Source of the DNA: Escherichia phage vB_EcoS_G29-2 | Sequence record: NC_049822.1 | Length of the DNA: 51,739 bases | Strand: one strand, 5' to 3' | Shown: one piece after another, positions 8,829 through 42,318 of the stretch | How positions within the stretch are numbered: position 1 is the stretch's first letter | Layout of the letters: each line of letters opens with the position of its first letter | Notes under the pieces: generated by a model | Databases searched by the model: none | Seen by the model: only the letters and a program-made list of their open reading frames with translations | Told to the model about the DNA's origin: nothing | Position numbers and translations under genes: made by a program

Positions 8829-8853
8829 ACCCGCCAAATGGCGGGTTTTTTAT
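8829..8853 (+). terminator. rho-independent terminator (end of early region)
   Basis: CCCGCC-AAAT-GGCGGG + TTTTTTATT. Confidence 0.75.
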
Positions 8854-8901
8854 TGCCTGCAATTTGTCTATAATGAGGCTTTGTTATAAGGAGGGCGCAT
8901 T

Positions 8902-9423
8902 ATGGCTAAAAACGTTGAGCCAGCAGTAAAGGCTTGCAATTTTAAAAAACTATATAATAAGCAATATGGCGATATTGCAAAAATGACAAAGGCGCACAAG
9001 TACACGCCGGAACAGGTGTTTGATCTGGCTGTGCGTTACTTTACGTGGGCCGAGGAAAACCATATACAGGCTGCGGAAACTGCATCCTTTCAGGGTGATG
9101 TATACGAAAGCAAGATTCACAAGCCGCGCGTGTTCACCTTAAATGGATTCCGCTTATTCGCTGGGCTTTCTGCTTCCGTTCTTGAAAAATGGCGACGCGA
9201 GCCAGGATTCAGCGATGTTATGGACTTTATCGACGGCGTTGTTTATGAACAAAAATTTCAGCTTGCTGCAAACAATATTGTTAACGCTGGATTCATTGGT
9301 AAAGAGATCGGCATTGAAAAGCCAGCAACCGTAACCATTGAGAATAACACAAGCGCAAGCGTTGACGCTGTAACGGCGGAGGAAGTCAAAGAGGCGGTAA
9401 TTGACATTCTGGAGAAGATATAA
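8902..9423 (+). CDS. terminase small subunit
   Basis: motif FTLNGFRLFAGLSASVLEKWRRE typical of TerS DNA-binding region; immediately upstream of TerL. Confidence 0.75.
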   Translation: MAKNVEPAVKACNFKKLYNKQYGDIAKMTKAHKYTPEQVFDLAVRYFTWAEENHIQAAETASFQGDVYESKIHKPRVFTLNGFRLFAGLSASVLEKWRREPGFSDVMDFIDGVVYEQKFQLAANNIVNAGFIGKEIGIEKPATVTIENNTSASVDAVTAEEVKEAVIDILEKI

Positions 9424-10991
9424 TGCTGATTTGGGAAGACTTAACAGCGGCGCAAAAACGCGCCGTTAAGGAAATGAGCGAATATTCATTCGAAAAGATG
9501 ATCCGCATTTGGTTTCAATTATTGCAAGGTCAGAAATTCTTAGGGAACTGGCATTTCAGCTACCTATGCAGCGAAGTTGAAAAAATCATCAAAGGAGAGT
9601 CACAGAATGTAATTTTCAACATAACGCCAGGCAGTGGTAAAACAGAGATATTCTCGATCCACATGTCACCTTATGCGTCATTGAAAAGTAAGAAGGTGCG
9701 AAATCTTAATCTTTCATTTAGTGATGGCCTTGTCCAGCAGAATAGCAACCGCATTAAAGAGATTATTGGTTCTCCAGAATGGCAGGAGCTATGGCCTGGA
9801 AAGCTGGTAAAGGCAAGCGCAAAGGATCTGATTGTAACCGATGGCGGCAAGGTTAAATTGCAAGTTAACTCGCGATCTATAGGTGGTCAGGTTACTGGTC
9901 TGCGTGGCGGCTACATGGACGATGGATTTACTGGTATGCTGGTTCTTGATGATCCAGACAAACCGGATGACATGCTTTCTAAGGTAAAGCGCGAAGCCGG
10001 ACACATGCGCCTAAAGAACACGGTGCGATCGCGTCGAATGAAGGACACAACGCCCATCGTAATGGTCCAGCAACGGCTACACGTCAATGATTCAACATGG
10101 TTCATGACAAACGGCGGCATGGGCGGCATCCAGTTTAAGGTGGTTAGTATTCCGGCGCTCGTTACTAAGGAATATCGCGAAACGCTTCCTGATTGGTTAA
10201 AGCCTGAGTTTGATCGCGATGTTTTGTCCAGTAAGCCAGTGATGATTGATGGAGTTGCTCATTATTCATTCTGGCCTGCTAAGGAAAGCGCGGAGGAATT
10301 GCTTGCGCTTCGAAATGCTGATCCGTACACGTTCGCTAGTCAGTATCAGCAACAGCCTGTTGCGCTTGGCGGTAACGTGTTTAAAACAGAGTGGTTTCAG
10401 TATTACGGCAGCAGCGAGAAATGCACGCTACCAAAACCGGATCGCTTTGAATATACATTTATCACGGTTGATACCGCACAGAAAACAGGGGAGCTTAACG
10501 ACTACTCCGTGATCTGTTATTGGGGGATGTATAAAGATCGCGTTTACTTCATTGATGGTGTTCGCGGAAAATGGGAAGCACCAGACCTTGAGACTAATTT
10601 TGTTGCGTTCGTTAATCAGTGCTGGAAGCGCAATAAAGAATGCGGAACGTTGCGAAGGATTCATGTTGAAGATAAATCGTCTGGCACTGGTTTGATTCAG
10701 AGTGCAGCGAAAAAAATAATGATCAAGATCAATCCCGTTCAGCGCGATAAAGACAAGGTTACTCGTGCAATGGACGCAGCGCCAGTAATGCGCGCCGGAC
10801 GCGTAGCACTTCCAGAATCGCATCCTATGCTGGCTGAGATACTCGCTGAAGTTGCGGCGTTTACATTCGATGATTCGCATCCTCATGATGATATTGTTGA
10901 TAACATCATTGATGCGGTTAACATTGAAATGAACATGGCAGATGATCCTGTAGGAAGAATGAAAAAATTGGCAGGTTTGCGGAACAAATAG
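9423..10991 (+). CDS. terminase large subunit
   Basis: 522 aa; ATPase P-loop-like TPGSGKT and acidic nuclease-type C-terminus; position between TerS and portal. Confidence 0.85.
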   Translation: MLIWEDLTAAQKRAVKEMSEYSFEKMIRIWFQLLQGQKFLGNWHFSYLCSEVEKIIKGESQNVIFNITPGSGKTEIFSIHMSPYASLKSKKVRNLNLSFSDGLVQQNSNRIKEIIGSPEWQELWPGKLVKASAKDLIVTDGGKVKLQVNSRSIGGQVTGLRGGYMDDGFTGMLVLDDPDKPDDMLSKVKREAGHMRLKNTVRSRRMKDTTPIVMVQQRLHVNDSTWFMTNGGMGGIQFKVVSIPALVTKEYRETLPDWLKPEFDRDVLSSKPVMIDGVAHYSFWPAKESAEELLALRNADPYTFASQYQQQPVALGGNVFKTEWFQYYGSSEKCTLPKPDRFEYTFITVDTAQKTGELNDYSVICYWGMYKDRVYFIDGVRGKWEAPDLETNFVAFVNQCWKRNKECGTLRRIHVEDKSSGTGLIQSAAKKIMIKINPVQRDKDKVTRAMDAAPVMRAGRVALPESHPMLAEILAEVAAFTFDDSHPHDDIVDNIIDAVNIEMNMADDPVGRMKKLAGLRNK

Positions 10992-11018
10992 CACGAATCG
11001 ATAAACCAATATATAATC

Positions 11019-11048
11019 AAAGGCTGGTAAATCCAGCCTTTTTTTATT
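11019..11048 (+). terminator. rho-independent terminator between TerL and portal
   Basis: AAAGGCTGG-TAAAT-CCAGCCTTTTTTTATT. Confidence 0.7.
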
Positions 11049-11060
11049 GGAGGAAAGATA

Positions 11061-12341
11061 ATGAGTAAATCACGAATCGTTAAGGCTGACGGCTACAACG
11101 AGATCTTTAAAGGCGAGAATTGCAAATCGCGAGTAGAGCAACCATTCTACATGCAGTCAATGCCATACAAGACGCTTGCTGACTTTTACGAAAAAGATGG
11201 CCTGGCAAAAAGGATTATTGACGTAGTACCAGAGGAAATGGTTTCCCCTGGATTTACTGTTGACGGCGTGGCAGACGAGGCAGCATTCCGTTCTTTGTGG
11301 GATGAGAAGCGATTGAATGCAAAAATAATTGATGCGCTTTGCTGGTCGCGTTTGTTTGGCGGATCTGCAATCATTGCTCTTGTTCAGGATGGGCGAGCGC
11401 TCAAATCACCTGTAAAGCCTGGAGCTATTCTGGAAGATGTGCGCGTTTACGATCGCTATCAGATTCGAGTTGAAGCGCGCGAAACTAATCCCCGCAAGGT
11501 TCGCTATGGTGAGCCAGTGCTTTACACTGTAACACCAGGCGGAGATTTGCCGGAATACCAGGTACATTACACGCGCGTTTGCATTATCGACGGTGAGCGG
11601 ATACCTAACGCAAAGCGACGCAGCAATGATGGATGGGGTGAGTCAGTTCTTAACAAGCGACTTGTTGAGGCTATTGTTGATTATAACTATTGTGAAACAT
11701 TAGCGACGCAATTATTGCGAAGAAAACAACAGGCAGTATGGAAGGCTAAAGGTCTTGCTGACTTGTGCGATGATGAAGAAGGTGTTAGCGCGGCACGTCT
11801 GAGGCTTGCGCAGGTTGACGATGAGGGCGGCGTAGGCAGGGCCATTGGTATTGATGCTGAGGATGAGGAATATGATGTTCTTAACTCTGACATTAGCTGC
11901 GTTGATTCTTTTCTGGAAAAGAAAATGGATCGCATCGTTTCCCTTTCAGGTATTCATGAAATCATCCTGAAAAACAAAAACGTTGGCGGCGTTAGCGCAA
12001 GCCAAAACACGGCGCTTGAAACATTCTATAAGCTGATTGAACGAAAACGCGTTGAGGATTACAAGCCTATCCTTGAATTTCTATTACCGTTCATCATTAG
12101 TGAGCAGGAGTGGAGCATTGAGTTTTCACCTTTGAGCGTACCTAGCGATAAAGATCAGGCTGAAATCCTGAATAAGAATATCGACTCAATCAGCAAGGCT
12201 ATTGATGGTCAGTTCCTTGATGTTGAAGAGGCGCGCGACACGTTGCGAGCAATCGCACCAAGCGTTAAACTAAAGGACACTAATAAAATCAAGCTGCCGG
12301 AGCCAGCGGAGCCGGAGCCAGGCACACAGGGGAATGAGTAA
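11061..12341 (+). CDS. portal protein
   Basis: 426 aa, acidic C-terminus, follows TerL. Confidence 0.8.
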   Translation: MSKSRIVKADGYNEIFKGENCKSRVEQPFYMQSMPYKTLADFYEKDGLAKRIIDVVPEEMVSPGFTVDGVADEAAFRSLWDEKRLNAKIIDALCWSRLFGGSAIIALVQDGRALKSPVKPGAILEDVRVYDRYQIRVEARETNPRKVRYGEPVLYTVTPGGDLPEYQVHYTRVCIIDGERIPNAKRRSNDGWGESVLNKRLVEAIVDYNYCETLATQLLRRKQQAVWKAKGLADLCDDEEGVSAARLRLAQVDDEGGVGRAIGIDAEDEEYDVLNSDISCVDSFLEKKMDRIVSLSGIHEIILKNKNVGGVSASQNTALETFYKLIERKRVEDYKPILEFLLPFIISEQEWSIEFSPLSVPSDKDQAEILNKNIDSISKAIDGQFLDVEEARDTLRAIAPSVKLKDTNKIKLPEPAEPEPGTQGNE

Positions 12342-14791: not shown

Positions 14792-15226
14792 ATGAGTGAT
14801 TATTCAGTCATTGTTGGCGCTGAGTCGCCAGGATGCATGGTTGATTCTTCAATAATGGTGATTAATGGTTCTTTTGTATGTGGAGACGAGTTTATTTCAC
14901 CAGGTAAGATTGTAAGGTTATCATATATATCAAGCGGATATAAAATAGTCAGTGTTAATGGTGATCTAGTTATTGGCGTGGCAGTAAGACCGCCGGACTC
15001 GTGCATATATGAGGAGGGTGATCCCGTTAATGTGGTTAGTAGAGGTAGTGTGTGGTGCTTAACTTCTGAGAGCGAAGCGCCAGAATATGGAGATAAAGTA
15101 TTTGTAACGCAAGATGGAGATGCGGCATACAGTGAAGGCGACTTGCTGAGCGGTTGGATCTTTACTGGCGAACATGTAAAGGTTGATCATGATTCATATA
15201 TTGTCGGGGTAAGCATTAGCGCATAA
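14792..15226 (+). CDS. head-associated hypothetical protein
   Basis: 144-aa ORF between head genes. Confidence 0.45.
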   Translation: MSDYSVIVGAESPGCMVDSSIMVINGSFVCGDEFISPGKIVRLSYISSGYKIVSVNGDLVIGVAVRPPDSCIYEEGDPVNVVSRGSVWCLTSESEAPEYGDKVFVTQDGDAAYSEGDLLSGWIFTGEHVKVDHDSYIVGVSISA

Positions 15227-15244: not shown

Positions 15245-15266
15245 GTTTAACAAAAAATGCTATCAT
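15245..15266 (-). promoter_or_regulatory. motif copy in inverted orientation between head genes (function unclear)
   Basis: TTAACAAAAAATGCTAT on + strand; lacks the usual 19-bp spacing to a -10. Confidence 0.3.
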
Positions 15267-19003: not shown

Positions 19004-19024
19004 CTTTTAACAAAAAGTGCTATC
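19004..19024 (-). promoter_or_regulatory. motif copy in inverted orientation upstream of chaperone gene (function unclear)
   Basis: CTTTTAACAAAAAGTGCTATC on + strand immediately before RBS of 19037. Confidence 0.3.
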
Positions 19025-24869: not shown

Positions 24870-24897
24870 AGTCGCGCGTTGCGCGGCTTTTTTTTTG
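24870..24897 (+). terminator. rho-independent terminator before J gene
   Basis: GC-rich hairpin GTCGCGCG..CGCGGC + T9. Confidence 0.6.
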
Positions 24898-24941
24898 CCC
24901 GTATAATTCAACAAATCAAATAGCACAAAAGGTGAAAAAGC

Positions 24942-27900
24942 ATGGCTGAAAATATGATAACGGGCAGTAAGGGTGGATCATCAAAACCTTATGTTCCGAA
25001 AGAGATGGAAGATAACCTGATCTCAATCAACAAAATCAAAATCCTTCTTGCCGTTTCAGATGGCGAGTGCGATCCAGATTTTACACTTCGGGATCTGTAT
25101 CTTGATGATGTTCCGGTAATTGCAGACGACGGAACTGTTAACTACCAGGGTGTGAAAGCTGAATTTCGACCTGGAACGCAGACGCAAGATTACATCCAGG
25201 GGTTTACTGACACATCAAGCGAAGTGACGCTGGCGCGTGACATTACTACATCAAATCCTTATGTAATTTCTGTAACCAACAAAACATTATCGGCTATCAG
25301 AATCAAAATGCTAATGCCAACAGGCATTAAGCAAGAGGACAACGGCGATCTTGTCGGCGTTAAGGTCACTTATGCTGTTGATATGGCTGTTGACGGAGAC
25401 TCTTACAAAGAAGTATTGCGAGACACTATCGAAGGTAAAACACGTTCAGGTTACGATAGAAGCCGAAGGATTGACCTTCCGTCATTTAATGATCGCGTAT
25501 TACTTAGGGTTAGAAGGGTTACGGCAGACAGCGCATCTTCTCGTGTTACTGATCTTATTAAGCTACAAAGTTACGCTGAGGTTATTGATGCAAAATTCCG
25601 TTACCCTCTGACTGGTCTTGTATACGTTGAATTTGACAGTGAATTGTTTCCTAACCAGATCCCAAATATTTCAATCAAGAAAAAGTGGAAACTGATTAAT
25701 GTACCAAGCAACTATGATCCTGTATCCAGAGAGTATAGAGGTTCATGGGATGGAACATTCAAAAAAGCCTGGTCAAATAATCCAGCATGGGTGCTTTACG
25801 ACATCATTACAAATCAGCGTTATGGATTAGATCAGAGAGAGCTTGGTGTACAGGTTGATAAGTGGAGTCTTTACGAAGCTGCGCAATACTGCGATCAGAA
25901 AGTTCCAGACGGAAAAGGAGGCACAGAGCCACGCTATCTATGTGATGTTGTTATCCAGAGTCAGATTGAGGCTTATCAGCTTATTCGTGACATTTGCTCT
26001 ATCTTCCGTGGAATGAGCTTTTGGAATGGCGAGAGTTTGTCAATCGTTATTGATAAACCACGCGATCCATCTTACATCTTCACAAATGATAACGTTGTTG
26101 ATGGTGATTTCCAGTATACGACGGCAAGCGAAAAGAGCATGTACACTCAGTGCAACGTGACGTTCGACGACGAACAAAACATGTATCAACAGGACGTAGA
26201 GGGAGTATTCGACACAGAGGCAGCATTGCGCTTTGGATACAATCCTACAAGCATAACCGCGATCGGATGTACACGCAGGAGTGAGGCTAATCGGCGCGGT
26301 CGATGGATACTAAAAACCAACTTGCGCAGCACTACGGTAAACTTTGCTACTGGACTGGAAGGCATGATCCCATCAATAGGTGATGTGATTGCTATTGCTG
26401 ACAATTTTCACAGCAGCAACCTTAAATTAAACCTATCAGGGCGCGTGATGGAAGTTTCCGGCTTGCAGGTGTTCGTTCCGTTTAAGATTGACGCGCGACC
26501 AGGTGATTTCATTATCATCAACAAGCCGGACGGAAAGCCAGTTAAGCGCACAATCTCAAAGGTAAGCGGTGACGGAAAAACAATTGAGCTAAACATCGGG
26601 TTTGGGTTTGAAGTTAAGCCGGATACAGTTTTTGCAATCGACCGCACTGATATTGCATTGCAGCAATACGTTGTAACGAGTATCGGCAAAGGTGATGATG
26701 ATGATGAATTTACATACTCCATCACGGCTGTTGAATATGACCCGAACAAATACGACGAGATTGATTATGGAGTAAACATTGACGACAGGCCAACTTCAAT
26801 TGTCCAGCCTGACACAATGGCAGCGCCTGAAAATGTGCAAATATCCTCCTACTCGCGAATTGTCCAGGGTGCAAGCGTTGAAACAATGGTTGTGTCGTGG
26901 GATAAAGTACCTTACGCATCGCTGTATGAAATGCAGTGGCGAAAAGGTGATGGCAACTGGCTGAATACACCACAGACTGCAAACAAAGAAATTGAGGTTG
27001 AAGGTATTTATTCAGGAAACTACCAGGTAAGGGTTAGATCTGTTTCTGCTTCAGGTTCGACGTCGCCGTGGTCCAGAATTGTAACAGCTTCACTGACTGG
27101 TAAGGTAGGGGAGCCAGGCGCGCCAGTTAACTTAACTGCATCCGACAATGAGGTGTTTGGCATTCGTGTTAAGTGGGGGATGCCAGAAGGCAGCGGAGAC
27201 ACGGCATACATTGAGCTTCATCAGTCGCCGGATGGAACGGCTGAAAACTCAAGCCTGTTAACTCTGATCCCATATCCACAATATGAATACTGGCACGGTA
27301 CGCTTCCGGCTGGTCATGTTGTATGGTATAGAATCCGCAGTGTTGACAGAATCGGCAACGTTTCCGGATGGACTGATTTTGTTAGAGGCATGGCTTCAGA
27401 TGATGTGGAGGCTGTTTTAGGCAATATTCTTGATAAGATTTTTGATACCGAAGCAGGGAAGGATCTGAAAGAGAATGCCATTGATAGCGCAAACAAAATC
27501 AAGGATCAGGCGCAAAGCATCATTCAAAACGCATTGGCGAATGATGCAGACGTTAGGATTATGAGGAAGGAAAACGGAAAACGCAAAGCCGAATTCAGGC
27601 AATCAATACAGTTGATCGCAGATGAAACTGAGGCGCGCGTTACCGCAATGACGCAACTCAAGGCTGAATTTGACGAGGAAATAACTAGCGAAGTAACGAG
27701 GCTTGATCAGGCAATTGCAACAGAATCGGAAACGCGAGCAACAGCCATTGAGGAATTGAAATCACAGATTGGAGATGATATTCAGGGGCAGTTAACGAGA
27801 GTTGAGGAGGCGATTGCAAGCGAAACAGAGGCGCGCGTTTCTGCTGACACAGCATTAACAGCGAAGTTTGGAGATGTTGAATCAGCGCTGACGGAAAAAC

Positions 27901-38037: not shown

Positions 38038-38511
38038 TTAGCAATTAGTGCTTTCAGGTTTATACAGGAATCCGCCAGGTTCATAATCTGACATTCTTAC
38101 CACTCGCAACATTTCACGCTTATCACATCTCTTTGTGAGCGGTTTGCCATTGGAATCAAATCGCAGATCTGGACGGCAGAATGACGCGCGATAGCCTTGA
38201 CAACCATATTTCTTGTAATCGTTATGCACCTTTTGAGCGCCAGCGGCTGAAATCATACCGCGAACGCGCCACTGATTTACAGTTTGCTGGCTAACGTTAA
38301 GACGCTTTGCCATTGCTGACACGCTGCCGTAATACTCAATAAGAATGTCAAGCCGTGCTTTTAGTCCGGCGCGCACTTCATCTTTTAAAACATAGTATCC
38401 TGTAGGGCGCTTGCGCTTTTTCTTATCTTTACCCCGTCGAGTTCCGTTATTGCCATTAATTGTGCGCTTGTCAATCTTGCCTGTTGATACCGCGATTCGC
38501 TGCTCTTTCAT
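38038..38511 (-). CDS. HTH DNA-binding protein (putative regulator)
   Basis: helix-turn-helix SVSAMAKRLNVSQQTVNQWRVRG; basic K/R-rich N-terminus. Confidence 0.6.
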   Translation of the reverse strand: MKEQRIAVSTGKIDKRTINGNNGTRRGKDKKKRKRPTGYYVLKDEVRAGLKARLDILIEYYGSVSAMAKRLNVSQQTVNQWRVRGMISAAGAQKVHNDYKKYGCQGYRASFCRPDLRFDSNGKPLTKRCDKREMLRVVRMSDYEPGGFLYKPESTNC

Positions 38512-38523
38512 TATTCATTCTCC

Positions 38524-38569
38524 AATAGCATTTTTTGTTAAACGATGATTTAATGATTGTGTATTATAC
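38524..38569 (+). promoter_or_regulatory. conserved motif promoter for helicase operon (no spacer hairpin, -10 TATTAT)
   Basis: CAATAGCATTTTTTGTTAAAC then 19 bp then TATTAT. Confidence 0.5.
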
Positions 38570-40640
38570 ACTCCAAATGGCATTACTCAAAGGTTTTAGA
38601 ATGATTCCAAACATTGAAAAGCAAATATCAGCACTTGGTGAAGCGGTAATTAAATCCATTCAGGAGCGGTTCACTGTTGGCGATATTGTGCCTTACCCTT
38701 ACCAGTGCGTTGCATACGCTGAGATCGCAAAGCGTATGAAAAATTATGAGCATCCATTCTTTGTTAAAGCGTCGGTATCGGCTGGCAAAACATTGATGTT
38801 TGCAATGGTTGCTCACCAGTGCCGGAAAATGGGCTTAAAAATGATGGTTCTTGCTCGCCAAGCTGAGATTGTGGATCAAGATTCTGAAGAGATAACAAAT
38901 CTTGGCGTGCCGAACTCAATCTATTGCGCAGGGCTGAAGACAAAGAGCGCATACTTTCCGATCGTTGTTGGTTCTGAGGGAACTGTAGTTAATGGACTGT
39001 TTAAAGCGCTTGGCGACTATGTTCCGCACGTTATCGGGATTGACGAGTGTCACCAGGTGGATTGGGAAGACCTTGCCGACGCCATAGAGAAAGATGAGTC
39101 ATTTTTACAAATGACGACAAAGAAAGGCGAAAGAGTACCAAATCCAGATTATGACATAGAGAGCGATAACGAGTGCGAAGAGTTCCTGATTGGTGAGGAT
39201 GGCTTGCCAATGGAGGGAACAGGCCGCACACAATACACTGTCATTATCATGGAAATGATGCGACGTTGCAGGAAAGCATATGGCCATGAACTGCGCATAT
39301 TTGGCATGACTGGATCGGAGTTTCGCGGTGTAGTCCCAATACTGGTAGAAGATAAAAAGCAGAAAGGATTTTGGCGTGAACAGGTTACTAATATTGACAC
39401 CAACTACCTGATCAAGTTCGGTTCTGTTGTTCCGACTAATTTTGGCGACGTTGGCGATCTCGGGTATGACCTTTCAGAGTTTGAGGCATCAAGCGAGGAT
39501 GGCGTTGCAGACTTTGACGCTAAAACGCTTCGCAGGATGGAACAAAAAATTCATGAAGAAGCGACCATGACAAAGCGCATCATGGCGAAAGTGCACGAGA
39601 TCTGTAAAAACCGTAACGGTGTACTTGTGACATGTGCAGGCGAAAGGCACTGTAAAGAGGCGGCGGCAGCATTGCCGCCTGGAACGACTTACAGGATCAT
39701 TACTGGTAAGACTGGCGATAACCAGCGCAAGGAGTGGTTGAAAGAAGCATACGAGGGAAAGGTTAAATACATCTTCCAGGTGCAGGCGCTAACTACTGGC
39801 GTTAACGTGCCGTTTTGGGATACGTCTGTTATTCTGCGTAAGATTGGATCTCTTACGTTGCTGATTCAGCTTTTAGGGCGCGGAATGCGACTGCTTAAGA
39901 AATGGCATAAGGAGCAAGGATTCAAGAAAGATGATCATCTCGTCATGGATTTTTCAGGAACGATGGACGAGCTAGGGGAGCTTTATTTTGATCCGATACT
40001 GGAACAGGCGCAGCACCAGAAGCGATTCAGAAATGGTAAAGATCCGAAGCCTTGTCCTGTTTGCGGAACTCTTAACAGCTATTATGCTCGTCGTTGTATG
40101 CACGTAGACGAAAACGGCAACAGATGCGAGTGGTTCTTTAAATTCAGGACATGTGATGATCAGATTGACCCGCGCACTAAAAAGATTATTCATCGCGGTT
40201 GCGGAACGAAGAATGATATTGCGGCCAGGGTATGCAGACATTGCGACATGTCATTGATTGACCCTAACGAGAAGTTAAGCGGAAAGCACTACACAAAAAA
40301 CGACTGGTTTCAGGTGCAATCTTTCTCGGTTGACATGACGAAAAACCAGAAAGGGATAATATTTAATTATGAGCTTTCCGATGGCATAGACACTTTCAGG
40401 GCGAGAGAGATATTTTTCCCTGAATCTGAGAGCCAAATTTGCCGCGCAAAATGGCGAAGCGTTGCTCTTAAGCACATACCAGATCGCCGTGTTGCTGGCA
40501 TGGTGGCGAGCTATCGTAATGCACGTAAAATCATGCAATATGTGAATCACATCATGCCACCATCGCGTGTAACTCACCGCAAGACTAGCAAGGGTGAAGA
40601 TAATTTGTACAAGAAGGACTTTAATTATGGCAATGACTGA
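38535..40640 (+). CDS. ATP-dependent helicase (SF2, DEAH-type) with C-terminal zinc ribbons
   Basis: Walker A SAGKT, DEAH-like IGIDECHQV, C-terminal CPVCG...C...C clusters; start uncertain (38535 TTG, ATG 38578 or 38601). Confidence 0.75.
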   Translation: MLNDDLMIVYYTLQMALLKGFRMIPNIEKQISALGEAVIKSIQERFTVGDIVPYPYQCVAYAEIAKRMKNYEHPFFVKASVSAGKTLMFAMVAHQCRKMGLKMMVLARQAEIVDQDSEEITNLGVPNSIYCAGLKTKSAYFPIVVGSEGTVVNGLFKALGDYVPHVIGIDECHQVDWEDLADAIEKDESFLQMTTKKGERVPNPDYDIESDNECEEFLIGEDGLPMEGTGRTQYTVIIMEMMRRCRKAYGHELRIFGMTGSEFRGVVPILVEDKKQKGFWREQVTNIDTNYLIKFGSVVPTNFGDVGDLGYDLSEFEASSEDGVADFDAKTLRRMEQKIHEEATMTKRIMAKVHEICKNRNGVLVTCAGERHCKEAAAALPPGTTYRIITGKTGDNQRKEWLKEAYEGKVKYIFQVQALTTGVNVPFWDTSVILRKIGSLTLLIQLLGRGMRLLKKWHKEQGFKKDDHLVMDFSGTMDELGELYFDPILEQAQHQKRFRNGKDPKPCPVCGTLNSYYARRCMHVDENGNRCEWFFKFRTCDDQIDPRTKKIIHRGCGTKNDIAARVCRHCDMSLIDPNEKLSGKHYTKNDWFQVQSFSVDMTKNQKGIIFNYELSDGIDTFRAREIFFPESESQICRAKWRSVALKHIPDRRVAGMVASYRNARKIMQYVNHIMPPSRVTHRKTSKGEDNLYKKDFNYGND

Positions 40641-42066: not shown

Positions 42067-42107
42067 CACTTTTTGTTAAAAAGCCCGGCCCTGTGTCGGG
42101 CATAATT
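42062..42107 (+). promoter_or_regulatory. conserved motif promoter (hairpin GCCCG/CGGGC, -10 CATAAT)
   Basis: motif then 19 bp then ATAATT. Confidence 0.55.
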
Positions 42108-42138
42108 ATTTCATCAAAACGAACAAGAGGAAAACAAA

Positions 42139-42318
42139 ATGGTTGTTTACGATCCACGCGCTTTTAAAATTGCTCAAGAAGTTTCACGCGAATCTGTTGC
42201 TGGCGGTTCGGTTAACGGCTATCAGTTTGATTGGTCGGCAGCAATGACCTTGCTTAAGGTTGCATATGGTCACGCGCCAATTGAAACAGCGGAGGCATAT
42301 TATAAGCATGAAGGTTGA
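42139..42318 (+). CDS. small hypothetical protein (59 aa)
   Basis: not in track; RBS AAGAGGAAAA downstream of motif promoter. Confidence 0.4.
   Translation: MVVYDPRAFKIAQEVSRESVAGGSVNGYQFDWSAAMTLLKVAYGHAPIETAEAYYKHEG

What the first reader, a model, noticed from the sequence alone, without database searches (positions are those of the whole stretch)
10986..11048. Degenerate motif copy and strong terminator between TerL and portal
AATAGCACGAATCGATAAACC is followed by TATAAT only 4 bp later and then a strong terminator hairpin with T7 immediately before the portal RBS. A terminator inside the packaging/morphogenesis operon suggests attenuation to set terminase:portal stoichiometry. The motif copy here has non-standard geometry.
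Basis: seen in the sequence. Interest (0 to 1): 0.35.

Follow-up and report, generated by a model that had tools for sequence, protein, structure and literature searches.

The report
Terminator-promoter joint between terminase and portal
This is an ordinary, family-wide transcription stop signal at the end of a T1-like phage's terminase genes, sitting next to a conserved promoter-like TATAAT box and a decaying copy of a repeat motif already published for these phages, so it is real but largely already known.

Summary
The window is a Hanrivervirus-like T1-type phage (Drexlerviridae). The TerL stop codon (10989-91) lies inside a 21-nt copy of the family's repeat. TATAAT follows at 11012-17, then a 9-bp hairpin (11019-41), a T7 run, a Shine-Dalgarno site and the portal ATG (11061).

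The motif is the published 'DR' of TLS/T1 (aaATAGCACnnnTTGnTAAAA), whose function is unknown. About 20 window copies carry a -10 hexamer 19-20 nt downstream. This copy has it at 6 nt and has two mismatches.

The hairpin is the ortholog of TLS terminator T30, and it is annotated as a terminator in phages Sazh and AKS96. It is kept across genera with compensatory stem changes. The hexamer in front of it shows a sigma-70 -10 conservation profile even in lineages that lack the DR.

RNA started about 7 nt after the hexamer would lack the 5' arm of the hairpin and so escape termination.

Most likely reading: a boundary module that ends the terminase transcript and probably re-initiates transcription for the portal and head genes. 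It is one of about ten such terminators in the late region. 'Attenuation for stoichiometry' is only partly supported. Interest is low and the elements are essentially already known. No transcript data exist to confirm the promoter.

The parts
9423..10991 (+). Terminase large subunit (TerL) gene. Its TAG stop (10989-10991) lies inside the repeat motif.
   Evidence: ORF list. DNA 97-98% identical to phages aalborv, grams and pSf-1, where it is annotated 'terminase large subunit'.
10986..11006 (+). Degenerate copy of the Drexlerviridae 21-nt direct repeat (DR, consensus aaATAGCACnnnTTGnTAAAA). Here it reads AAATAGCACGAATCGATAAAC, the 'G' (GAA) subclass, with two mismatches in the 3' half.
   Evidence: The consensus and subclasses come from PMC11447400. 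Diverged relatives carry the perfect form AAATAGCACGAATTGCTAAA at the same place. The nearest relatives are more decayed (CGACAAAC).
11012..11017 (+). Perfect -10-like hexamer TATAAT, 6 nt after the DR core and 1 nt before the hairpin. It is a candidate sigma-70 -10 element for a portal/head-gene promoter. The hexamer 17 bp upstream is TAGCAC, a poor -35.
   Evidence: It is conserved as TAnnnT in 19 junction types, including lineages that lack the DR. Information per position is 1.7/2.0/0.69/1.41/1.51/2.0 bits, against 0.02-0.98 bits in the flank. The promoter scan does not list it because there is no -35 match.
11019..11041 (+). Terminator stem-loop. 5' arm 11019-11027 (AAAGGCTGG), loop 11028-11032 (TAAAT), 3' arm 11033-11041 (CCAGCCTTT). 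The GC core is 11022-11027 paired with 11033-11038.
   Evidence: Terminator scan, fold and covariation analysis. It is the ortholog of TLS T30 and of the annotated terminators of Sazh and AKS96.
11039..11045 (+). T7 run (U-tract) of the terminator. It is followed by ATT.
   Evidence: T5-7 followed by ATT(A)(T)GGAG is conserved in all T1-, TLS-, Rogue1- and DTL-type relatives.
11049..11053 (+). Shine-Dalgarno sequence GGAGG of the portal gene, 7 nt before the ATG.
   Evidence: An RBS is annotated at the equivalent place in Sazh and T1.
11061..12341 (+). Portal protein gene.
   Evidence: ORF list. Homologs are annotated as portal protein.
8829..8874 (+). Context: the upstream boundary of the terminase transcription unit. 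It consists of a terminator hairpin (8829-8846), a T-run, and then TATAAT (8869-8874) ahead of the TerS RBS.

Best explanation
The 75 nt between TerL and portal form a boundary module between two late transcription units.

(a) A canonical Rho-independent terminator (GC-rich 9-bp hairpin plus U7) ends, at least in part, the transcripts that come through the terminase genes. Those genes are themselves preceded by a terminator and a TATAAT at 8829-8874.

(b) The perfect TATAAT, 1 nt upstream of the hairpin, most likely serves as the -10 element of a host sigma-70 promoter. Its start site would fall at about 11023-11026, inside the 5' arm of the hairpin. RNA born there cannot form the hairpin. It therefore runs on into the portal and head genes, while RNA from upstream is stopped.

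(c) The repeat copy is a member of the family-wide DR motif, whose function is unknown. In this genus the copy is losing its 3' half and is probably of little or no importance here.

What is shown: the sequence features, the conservation and covariation of the hairpin, the -10-like conservation profile, and the loss of hairpin energy for promoter-born RNA.

What is inferred: that termination and initiation actually occur, and how efficient each is.
For: - Canonical terminator features are present: 9 pairs, 5 of them G-C, a 5-nt loop and T7. The fold has z = -3.4.
- The hairpin is kept in 16 diverged junction types. 100% of cells are paired, 3 pairs change on both sides, and 0 of 500 shuffles reach the observed covariation score.
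- Unrelated stems sit at the same place in other lineages: DTL (AGCCCC/GGGGCT), AKS96 (GCCCCT/AGGGGC), Ec_L1 and Webervirus.
- Homologous hairpins were called terminators independently: TLS T30, dG -11.8; a Sazh GenBank feature; and an AKS96 feature found with TransTermHP/WebGeSTer.
- The hexamer keeps T1, A2 and T6 in 18-19 of 19 junction types while position 3 varies. This matches the sigma-70 -10 profile. The flanks are nearly random.
- Five lineages add an extended -10 TGn.
- Hexamer variants (TACAAT, TAAACT, TACTAT) are not compensated on the U-tract side, so RNA pairing does not explain the conservation.
- The hexamer always ends 0-3 nt before the stem. RNA starting 7 nt after it keeps only 0 to -4.5 kcal/mol of structure, against -11 to -19 for read-through RNA, in all 13 lineages tested.
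- The late region has about ten terminator-plus-RBS junctions. This matches the 'transcripton' description of T1 and TLS.
- A second composite in this window (38054, minus strand) has the DR, then a terminator with a -10-like TATCAT in its loop at the standard +20 spacing. T1 has TAACAT and TLS has TATCAT at the same junction. Promoters nested in terminators therefore recur in this family.
Against: - No transcript data (TSS, 3' ends) exist for any T1-like phage in the searched literature.
- The candidate promoter has no acceptable -35 (TAGCAC, 2 of 6) and no TGn in this window. The consensus scan does not call it.
- A perfect TATAAT is not rare in AT-rich intergenic DNA.
- The junction sequences are phylogenetically related, so the conservation counts overstate independence.
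- A-rich sequence upstream of a terminator is also expected for bidirectional terminators. The minus strand also scores as terminator-like.
- If the real start site were 5 nt after the hexamer (A/G at 11021-22), most of the hairpin would still form (-11.3 kcal/mol).
Confidence: 0.55

Rival explanations
1. Pure attenuator. The hairpin plus U7 is a leaky terminator that only lowers the fraction of terminase transcripts continuing into portal. TATAAT is not a promoter. It is merely the A/T-rich tract that flanks a terminator, possibly a bidirectional one.
For: - The terminator features and their conservation are as described.
- There is no -35 or TGn in this window.
- A perfect TATAAT is not enriched in intergenic DNA.
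- The A-rich 5' flank can pair with the U-rich 3' flank in predicted folds.
- The minus strand also scores as a terminator.
Against: - The hexamer profile (T1, A2 and T6 invariant, position 3 free) is that of a -10 element, not of a generic A-tract.
- Variants containing C (TACAAT, TAAACT, TACTAT, TATCAT) weaken an A/U tract, are not compensated downstream, and yet keep TAnnnT.
- Serial attenuation through about ten late terminators would starve the most abundant structural genes unless there are internal promoters (inference).
Confidence: 0.25
2. DR-dependent regulated site. An unknown DR-binding factor (phage or host protein) acts here. One possibility is that it represses the TATAAT promoter, because the DR lies at about -36 to -19 instead of the usual -50 to -33. 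The other is that it drives a weak -10 in the hairpin loop at the standard +20 spacing.
For: - In diverged relatives the DR at this junction is perfectly conserved, always exactly 6 nt before the hexamer, while the flanks vary.
- In relatives the loop hexamer at +20 reads GACAAT, GACTAT or GACTTT, which keeps A2 and T6.
- The DR is quasi-palindromic (TAGCA-N5-TGCTA), as expected for a dimeric DNA-binding protein.
- The minus-strand copy at 15263 also has CATAAT 7 nt after the DR.
Against: - In this window the DR has lost its right half-site (CGATA instead of TGCTA). Its closest relatives are worse (CGACA).
- T1, TLS, Snitter, DTL and AKS96 keep the hexamer and terminator with no DR at all.
- The loop here (GGTAAA/GTAAAT) is not -10-like at +20 or +21.
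- No DR-binding factor is known (PMC11447400).
- T1 promoters that Pir regulates (hol, recE) lack a DR.
Confidence: 0.12
3. Mainly an RNA-stability or processing element. The hairpin protects the 3' end of terminase mRNA, or the 5' end of portal mRNA after cleavage, and its role as a transcription stop is secondary.
For: - Webervirus and Ec_L1 keep a hairpin at this junction without a U-tract.
- 69% of DR copies genome-wide are followed by stable hairpins without U-tracts (mean z = -2.5).
Against: - In this lineage, and in T1-, TLS-, Rogue1- and DTL-type phages, the hairpin is always followed by T5-T7. That is the defining mark of an intrinsic terminator.
- The two roles are not exclusive.
Confidence: 0.08

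Closest known systems
TLS terminator T30 (TerL/portal junction) and the annotated terminators of Citrobacter phage Sazh (MH729819, 11408-11434) and E. coli phage AKS96 (KF771239, 2654-2679)
   Same: Same genomic position: after the TerL stop and immediately before the portal RBS. TLS and Sazh have nearly the same stem (GGCTGG / CCGGCC) and the same tail (T-run followed by ATT, then the RBS). All were predicted as Rho-independent terminators.
   Different: TLS, Sazh and AKS96 have no DR copy at this junction. Their hexamers are TAAAAT or TAAACT rather than TATAAT. AKS96 has an unrelated stem. None has been tested experimentally.
The 21-nt direct repeat (DR) family of T1-like phages, aaATAGCACnnnTTGnTAAAA (TLS DR1-DR18; also T1, Rtp, Rogue1)
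   Same: Same sequence family (the 'G' subclass with GAA in the middle), oriented with transcription and intergenic. The copy starts 75 nt before the start codon; TLS copies lie about 76 nt upstream.
   Different: It has two mismatches at otherwise conserved positions. The -10-like hexamer is 6 nt downstream instead of 19-20 nt. It is followed by a full terminator. The function of the family is unknown (proposed: stoperator, enhancer site, or UP-like element).
[quoted passage not shown] One example is the T1 record's promoter 15062-15089 directly followed by terminator 15095-15121 before the major capsid gene.
   Same: Terminator and RBS junctions punctuate the structural genes, with a promoter-like element directly abutting a terminator.
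   Different: In T1 the TerL/portal hairpin is present in the sequence but is not annotated. The idea that the start site lies inside the hairpin is my inference and is not in the cited texts.
Classical regulated attenuators (leader-peptide, riboswitch or antiterminator-protein controlled terminators)
   Same: A terminator hairpin sits upstream of a gene inside a co-oriented gene cluster.
   Different: There is no alternative antiterminator fold, no leader ORF and no Rfam family match above threshold. Nothing suggests conditional control.

Membership tests
Intrinsic (Rho-independent) terminator | G+C-rich stem-loop | tested here: met
   9-bp stem with 5 G-C pairs and a 5-nt loop. The MFE structure keeps it, z = -3.4 and -6.75.
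Intrinsic (Rho-independent) terminator | Run of U directly 3' of the stem | tested here: met
   T7 at 11039-11045, then ATT. A T5-T7 run is conserved in relatives.
Intrinsic (Rho-independent) terminator | Lies downstream of a stop codon, on the coding strand, in non-coding DNA | tested here: met
   The TerL stop is at 10989-91 and the portal ATG at 11061.
Intrinsic (Rho-independent) terminator | Structure, rather than sequence, maintained in evolution | tested here: met
   100% of cells paired, 3 pairs with changes on both sides, 0 of 500 shuffles. Unrelated stems occur in DTL, AKS96, Ec_L1 and Webervirus.
Intrinsic (Rho-independent) terminator | Releases transcripts in vitro or in vivo | not testable with these tools
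   No Term-seq or northern data for any T1-like phage were found.
Drexlerviridae DR repeat (aaATAGCACnnnTTGnTAAAA) | Match to the 21-nt consensus, with highest conservation at ATAGCAC and TAAAA | tested here: inconclusive
   ATAGCAC is intact. TTG has become TCG and TAAAA has become TAAAC, so there are 2 mismatches. No chance match is expected.
Drexlerviridae DR repeat (aaATAGCACnnnTTGnTAAAA) | Oriented with transcription, between genes, about 76 nt upstream of the start codon | tested here: met
   It is on the + strand, like the genes. It overlaps only the TerL stop codon. Position 10986 is 75 nt before the ATG at 11061.
Drexlerviridae DR repeat (aaATAGCACnnnTTGnTAAAA) | A -10-like hexamer 19-20 nt after ...TAAA. 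This is the standard geometry derived here, not part of the published definition. | tested here: not met
   The hexamer is at +6. The sequences at +20 and +21 (GGTAAA, GTAAAT) are not -10-like. 19 of 24 window copies and 16 of 21 T1 copies have it at +19 to +21.
Sigma-70 promoter | -10 hexamer close to TATAAT, with A at position 2 and T at position 6 | tested here: met
   A perfect TATAAT at 11012-17. Its conservation across lineages follows the -10 profile.
Sigma-70 promoter | -35 hexamer close to TTGACA at 16-18 bp, or an extended -10 TGn | tested here: not met
   The hexamer at 17 bp is TAGCAC (2 of 6) and there is no TGn. The site is not listed by the scan. TGn is present in 5 other lineages.
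Sigma-70 promoter | Mapped transcription start | not testable with these tools
   No TSS data are available.
Regulated attenuator / riboswitch | Competing antiterminator structure, leader peptide or a known RNA family | tested here: not met
   The only strong structure is the terminator itself. Rfam hits are all below the gathering score (26 against 50 bits at best) and overlap the hairpin.

The most novel reading that the evidence does not exclude
T1-like phages may use a compact 'stop-and-restart' module. A DR motif, a hairpin of free sequence and a -10 box are packed together so that the hairpin exists only in RNA arriving from upstream, while the -10 box starts a new RNA inside or just past it. 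At two junctions (TerL/portal and pir/primase) the hairpin has gained a U-tract and become a full terminator. The DR would be read by an as yet unidentified factor that activates from about -41 and has a different effect when the DR sits at about -28, as at this junction in relatives.
Probability: 0.25. Interest if true: 0.5.

Novelty: already known. Interest (0 to 1): 0.2.

Why it matters
It matters little beyond annotation. The result gives this genus an unannotated terminator and a candidate internal late promoter, and it shows the DR copy here is decaying. If the nested promoter-in-terminator design were confirmed, it would explain how T1-like phages keep capsid genes highly expressed despite a terminator every one to three late genes. 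It would also offer compact insulating parts for synthetic biology. The real open question is what reads the DR motif, which occurs about 20 times per genome and has no known function. That question is touched by this locus but not answered by it.

Tried and rejected
- **Rfam scan of 10700-11300.** Only sub-threshold sRNA hits appeared (sroD at 26 bits against a gathering score of 50, PrrB/RsmZ, STnc390). All overlap the hairpin and I take them to be terminator look-alikes.
- **Literature search for TSS, Term-seq or RNA-seq of any T1-like phage.** Nothing usable was found.
- **Hypothesis that the DR is the operator of the T1 regulator Pir (Orf23).** Pir activates the dam promoter, which has a standard DR, and represses its own promoter, which has a DR next to it. 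But the Pir-regulated hol and recE promoters of T1 have no full DR. The hypothesis is not supported, though not excluded.
- **Enrichment of perfect TATAAT in intergenic DNA.** 7 copies against about 5.4 expected, which is not significant.
- **RNA pairing between the TATAAT region and the U-tract/ATTAT tail as the reason for hexamer conservation.** Predicted folds do show such weak outer helices. Hexamer variants are not compensated, so I rejected this as the main constraint.
- **The second CACGAATCG at 11071-11079, inside the portal gene.** It is a DR-like stretch (CACGAATCGTTAAGG) seen only in this genus. In other genera the same codons read differently, so I judged it coincidence plus coding constraint.
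- **First MAFFT alignment (A1).** It was out of register for the stem. I redid it with trimmed hairpins (A2).
- **My first hairpin finder.** It had a bug and tried only 3-nt loops. Its hairpin column was ignored and replaced by RNAfold z-scores.
Full report
**What the window is**

The 3 kb around the finding is 96-98% identical to Escherichia, Shigella and Salmonella phages aalborv, grams, pSf-1 and slyngel. These are Hanrivervirus-type members of the T1-like family Drexlerviridae. In those records the two flanking genes are annotated as terminase large subunit and portal protein. In the window, TerL is 9423-10991 and portal is 11061-12341.

**Check of the observation**

- The quoted 21-mer lies at 10987-11007. 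The published-consensus frame is 10986-11006.
- TATAAT is at 11012-11017.
- The hairpin AAAGGCTGG/TAAAT/CCAGCCTTT is at 11019-11041.
- T7 is at 11039-11045, GGAGG at 11049-11053 and the portal ATG at 11061.
- The TerL stop codon TAG (10989-91) is part of the motif.

The consensus scan calls the hairpin terminator-like on both strands. The 86-nt region folds at -19.3 kcal/mol with z = -3.4, and 0 of 200 shuffles fold as well. No chance match to the 21-mer is expected.

**The motif family**

ATAGCAC-N5-GnTAAA occurs 28 times at up to 2 mismatches, against 5.1 expected. About 23 of these are convincing, and they lie on the strand of the neighbouring genes.

This is the 21-nt direct repeat (DR) reported for phage TLS, consensus aaATAGCACnnnTTGnTAAAA. 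It has T, G and A subclasses and is also present in T1, Rtp and Rogue1. Its function is unknown. The authors mention stoperator-like, enhancer-binding or UP-element-like roles (PMC11447400).

I derived the standard geometry. In 19 of 24 window copies and 16 of 21 T1 copies, a -10-like hexamer (TATAAT, CATAAT, TATAGT and similar) begins 19-20 nt after ...TAAA. The DR then spans roughly -50 to -33, which fits a promoter-associated element.

The copy in the finding belongs to the G subclass. It has two mismatches (TTG to TCG, TAAAA to TAAAC), and its hexamer begins at +6. So 'degenerate' and 'non-standard geometry' are both correct.

**Comparative evidence at this junction**

I read the TerL/portal junction in 34 IMG/VR loci and 9 GenBank phages. 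Three layers emerge.

1. *Hairpin, T-run and RBS.* These are present in every T1-, TLS-, Rogue1-, DTL- and Snitter-type phage examined. In a register-correct alignment of 16 junction types, all 139 cells pair and three pairs change on both sides (A-U to G-C, G-C to U-A, A-U to C-G). None of 500 shuffles reaches the observed covariation score. DTL, AKS96, Ec_L1 and Webervirus have unrelated stems at the same place, and the last two lack a U-tract. The structure is therefore under selection.
2. *A TAnnnT hexamer ending 0-3 nt before the stem.* This is present in all 19 junction types, as TATAAT, TACAAT, TAAAAT, TATCAT, TACTAT, TAAACT or CATAAT. Information content per position is 1.7/2.0/0.69/1.41/1.51/2.0 bits, against 0.02-0.98 bits in the six flanking positions. 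This is the known shape of the sigma-70 -10 element, with A-11 and T-7 strongest and the third position weakest. Five lineages add a TGn extension. The variants are not compensated on the 3' side, so RNA pairing with the U-rich tail does not explain the conservation.
3. *The DR.* It is present only in a subset of lineages, those with portal identity of about 75-84% plus the Hanrivervirus group. There it is perfectly conserved as AAATAGCACGAATTGCTAAA (or AAATAGCACTAATTGCTAAA in some lineages), always exactly 6 nt before the hexamer. In the window it reads ...TCGATAAAC, and in its closest relatives ...TCGACAAAC. T1, TLS, Snitter, DTL and AKS96 have no DR here. The short geometry is thus an old, conserved arrangement, but the DR sequence is decaying in this genus.

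**Prior knowledge of the terminator**

The homologous hairpin is listed as terminator T30 of TLS (10914-10941, dG -11.8 kcal/mol; Supplementary Table S1 of PMC11447400). It is annotated as 'terminator' in Citrobacter phage Sazh, and in phage AKS96 it was found with WebGeSTer and TransTermHP. It is present in the T1 sequence but is not annotated in the T1 record.

[quoted passage not shown] The window fits this description. Strong + strand terminators, each followed at once by an RBS, lie at 8829, 11019, 14754, 16297, 16619, 18942, 19664, 22734, 24873 and 29361. The terminase genes have their own entry: a terminator at 8829-8846, then TATAAT at 8869-8874, then the TerS RBS.

**How it most likely works**

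The hairpin plus U7 is an intrinsic terminator that closes the terminase transcription unit. The TATAAT directly in front is probably the -10 element of a host-polymerase promoter for portal and the head genes.

E. coli polymerase usually starts about 7 nt after the -10 hexamer (established knowledge). That puts the start inside the 5' arm of the hairpin. Folding RNA from that start to the end of the U-tract leaves only 0 to -4.5 kcal/mol of structure, compared with -11 to -19 for read-through RNA. This holds in all 13 lineages tested. Upstream RNA would therefore be stopped, while promoter-born RNA passes.

A second junction supports this design. At 38054 on the minus strand, between the Pir homolog and primase, a DR is followed by a terminator whose loop carries TATCAT at the standard +20 spacing. 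The same junction has TAACAT in T1 and TATCAT in TLS (DR10/T57).

Weak points:
- There is no -35 (TAGCAC, 2 of 6) and no TGn in this window.
- A perfect TATAAT is not rare in intergenic DNA.
- The compared sequences are related to one another.
- No transcript data exist.

I put the composite model at about 0.55. The terminator part alone I put at about 0.85.

**Rivals**

It fits the terminator evidence. It does not explain the -10-like conservation profile. It would also progressively starve the downstream, more abundant structural genes.
- *DR-dependent regulation* (about 0.12). It is suggested by the strict DR-6 nt-hexamer spacing in relatives and by the quasi-palindrome TAGCA-N5-TGCTA. Against it, the DR is decaying here, is absent in many lineages that keep the rest, and no binding factor is known. 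The obvious candidate is Pir. T1 Orf23 activates the hol and dam promoters and represses pir and recE (PMC6737242). The window homolog is 60% identical. But T1 hol and recE promoters lack a DR, so the candidate is not supported.
- *RNA-stability role* (about 0.08). It is suggested by hairpins without U-tracts in Webervirus and Ec_L1, and by hairpins after 69% of DR copies. It is not exclusive of termination.

**Comparison with known systems and novelty**

The hairpin meets every testable criterion of an intrinsic terminator. The motif is a slightly degenerate member of the published DR family and fails only the standard -10 spacing. The candidate promoter meets the -10 criterion but not the -35 or TGn criterion. 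Nothing indicates a regulated attenuator: there is no alternative fold and no Rfam family match above threshold.

Because orthologs of the terminator and the motif family are already in the literature and in GenBank records, I rate the finding as already known and of low interest (0.2). The only modestly new points are the family-wide -10-like hexamer abutting the hairpin, and the inference that its transcripts would bypass the terminator.

Noticed in passing
window, about 20 sites, e.g. 1255, 2766, 4064, 5422, 31181, 41043, 42063, 47496(-), 48172(-); also T1 locus L037, e.g. 1450, 2269, 3535, 4864, 47633(-): Most DR copies are followed within 36 nt by a stable hairpin whose stem sequence differs from copy to copy. 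69% have z < -1.5 and the mean z is -2.5. The hairpin sits either in the DR-to-(-10) spacer or, especially in T1, with its two arms flanking the -10 hexamer. It has no U-tract. Its role is unexplained and is not mentioned in the TLS paper text I read.
   Followed up: partly
window 38054-37990 (- strand), between the Pir homolog (38041-38511) and primase: This is a second DR-plus-terminator composite. The DR (AAAGCACTAATTGCTAAA) contains the stop codon. It is followed by a 12-bp hairpin, T7 and an RBS. A -10-like TATCAT sits in the hairpin apex at the standard +20 spacing. The arrangement is conserved in T1 (TAACAT) and TLS (DR10 and T57).
   Followed up: partly
window 24873-24944: Ahead of the 1141-aa tail-fibre (J-like) gene the order is reversed: terminator, then TATAAT (24902), then 12 nt, then a DR-like copy (ATAGCACAAAAGGTGAAA). 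The A/G-rich part of that copy is the RBS, only 4 nt before the ATG. Here the DR would be transcribed in the 5' UTR. T1 (25021) and TLS (DR8) have the same arrangement.
   Followed up: no
window 15246-15263 (-) and 19006-19023 (-): Two DR copies point against the direction of the structural genes, one just before the major capsid gene and one after the major tail gene. They are conserved in T1 (15086-, 18850-) and TLS (DR7). They could be antisense promoters or roadblocks in the late region. The 15263 copy has CATAAT at +7, the same short geometry as the finding.
   Followed up: no
window, downstream of DR promoters, e.g. 1285-1330, 42095-42140, 45290-45250(-), 50190-50150(-): There is a conserved leader after the -10 box: (C)ATCGA(A/C)AACGA, a few nt, then GAGGA and the ATG. 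This suggests a shared 5' UTR element in DR-driven transcripts.
   Followed up: no
window 1256-58, 5423-25, 10989-91, 41044-46, 42064-66 and others: The TAG inside ATAGCAC, or a TAA just before it, serves as the stop codon of the upstream gene at many DR copies. The motif therefore doubles as a gene end.
   Followed up: no
window 11071-11079, inside the portal gene: CACGAATCG, the centre of the DR copy, recurs exactly 79 nt downstream in the portal coding sequence, within a DR-like stretch (ATCACGAATCGTTAAGG). It is seen only in this genus. It is probably coincidence plus coding constraint.
   Followed up: partly
loci L020 (1877-2428) and L025 (1927-2433): In two relatives an extra gene of about 170-180 aa, ending ...YHENHGKK, is inserted between TerL and the DR. 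I suspected an HNH homing endonuclease but did not test this. It has no intergenic space after TerL and reuses the DR/TATAAT/terminator module. L025 is otherwise Hanrivervirus-like but carries a perfect DR.
   Followed up: partly
window 38511-38590: The Pir (T1 Orf23) homolog, 60% identical, has one of the few consensus-like sigma-70 promoters in the window (TTGAGT-16-TATAAT, 38590-38563, minus strand). A + strand DR (38525-38542) lies between that promoter and the pir start codon. This geometry is compatible with the autorepression reported for T1 Pir.
   Followed up: partly
public records matched: About 20 GenBank records named 'Campylobacter phage' (for example A16a, A14a, A143) are 87-96% identical to this E. 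coli/Shigella phage group and carry no annotation. The host attribution looks doubtful.
   Followed up: no
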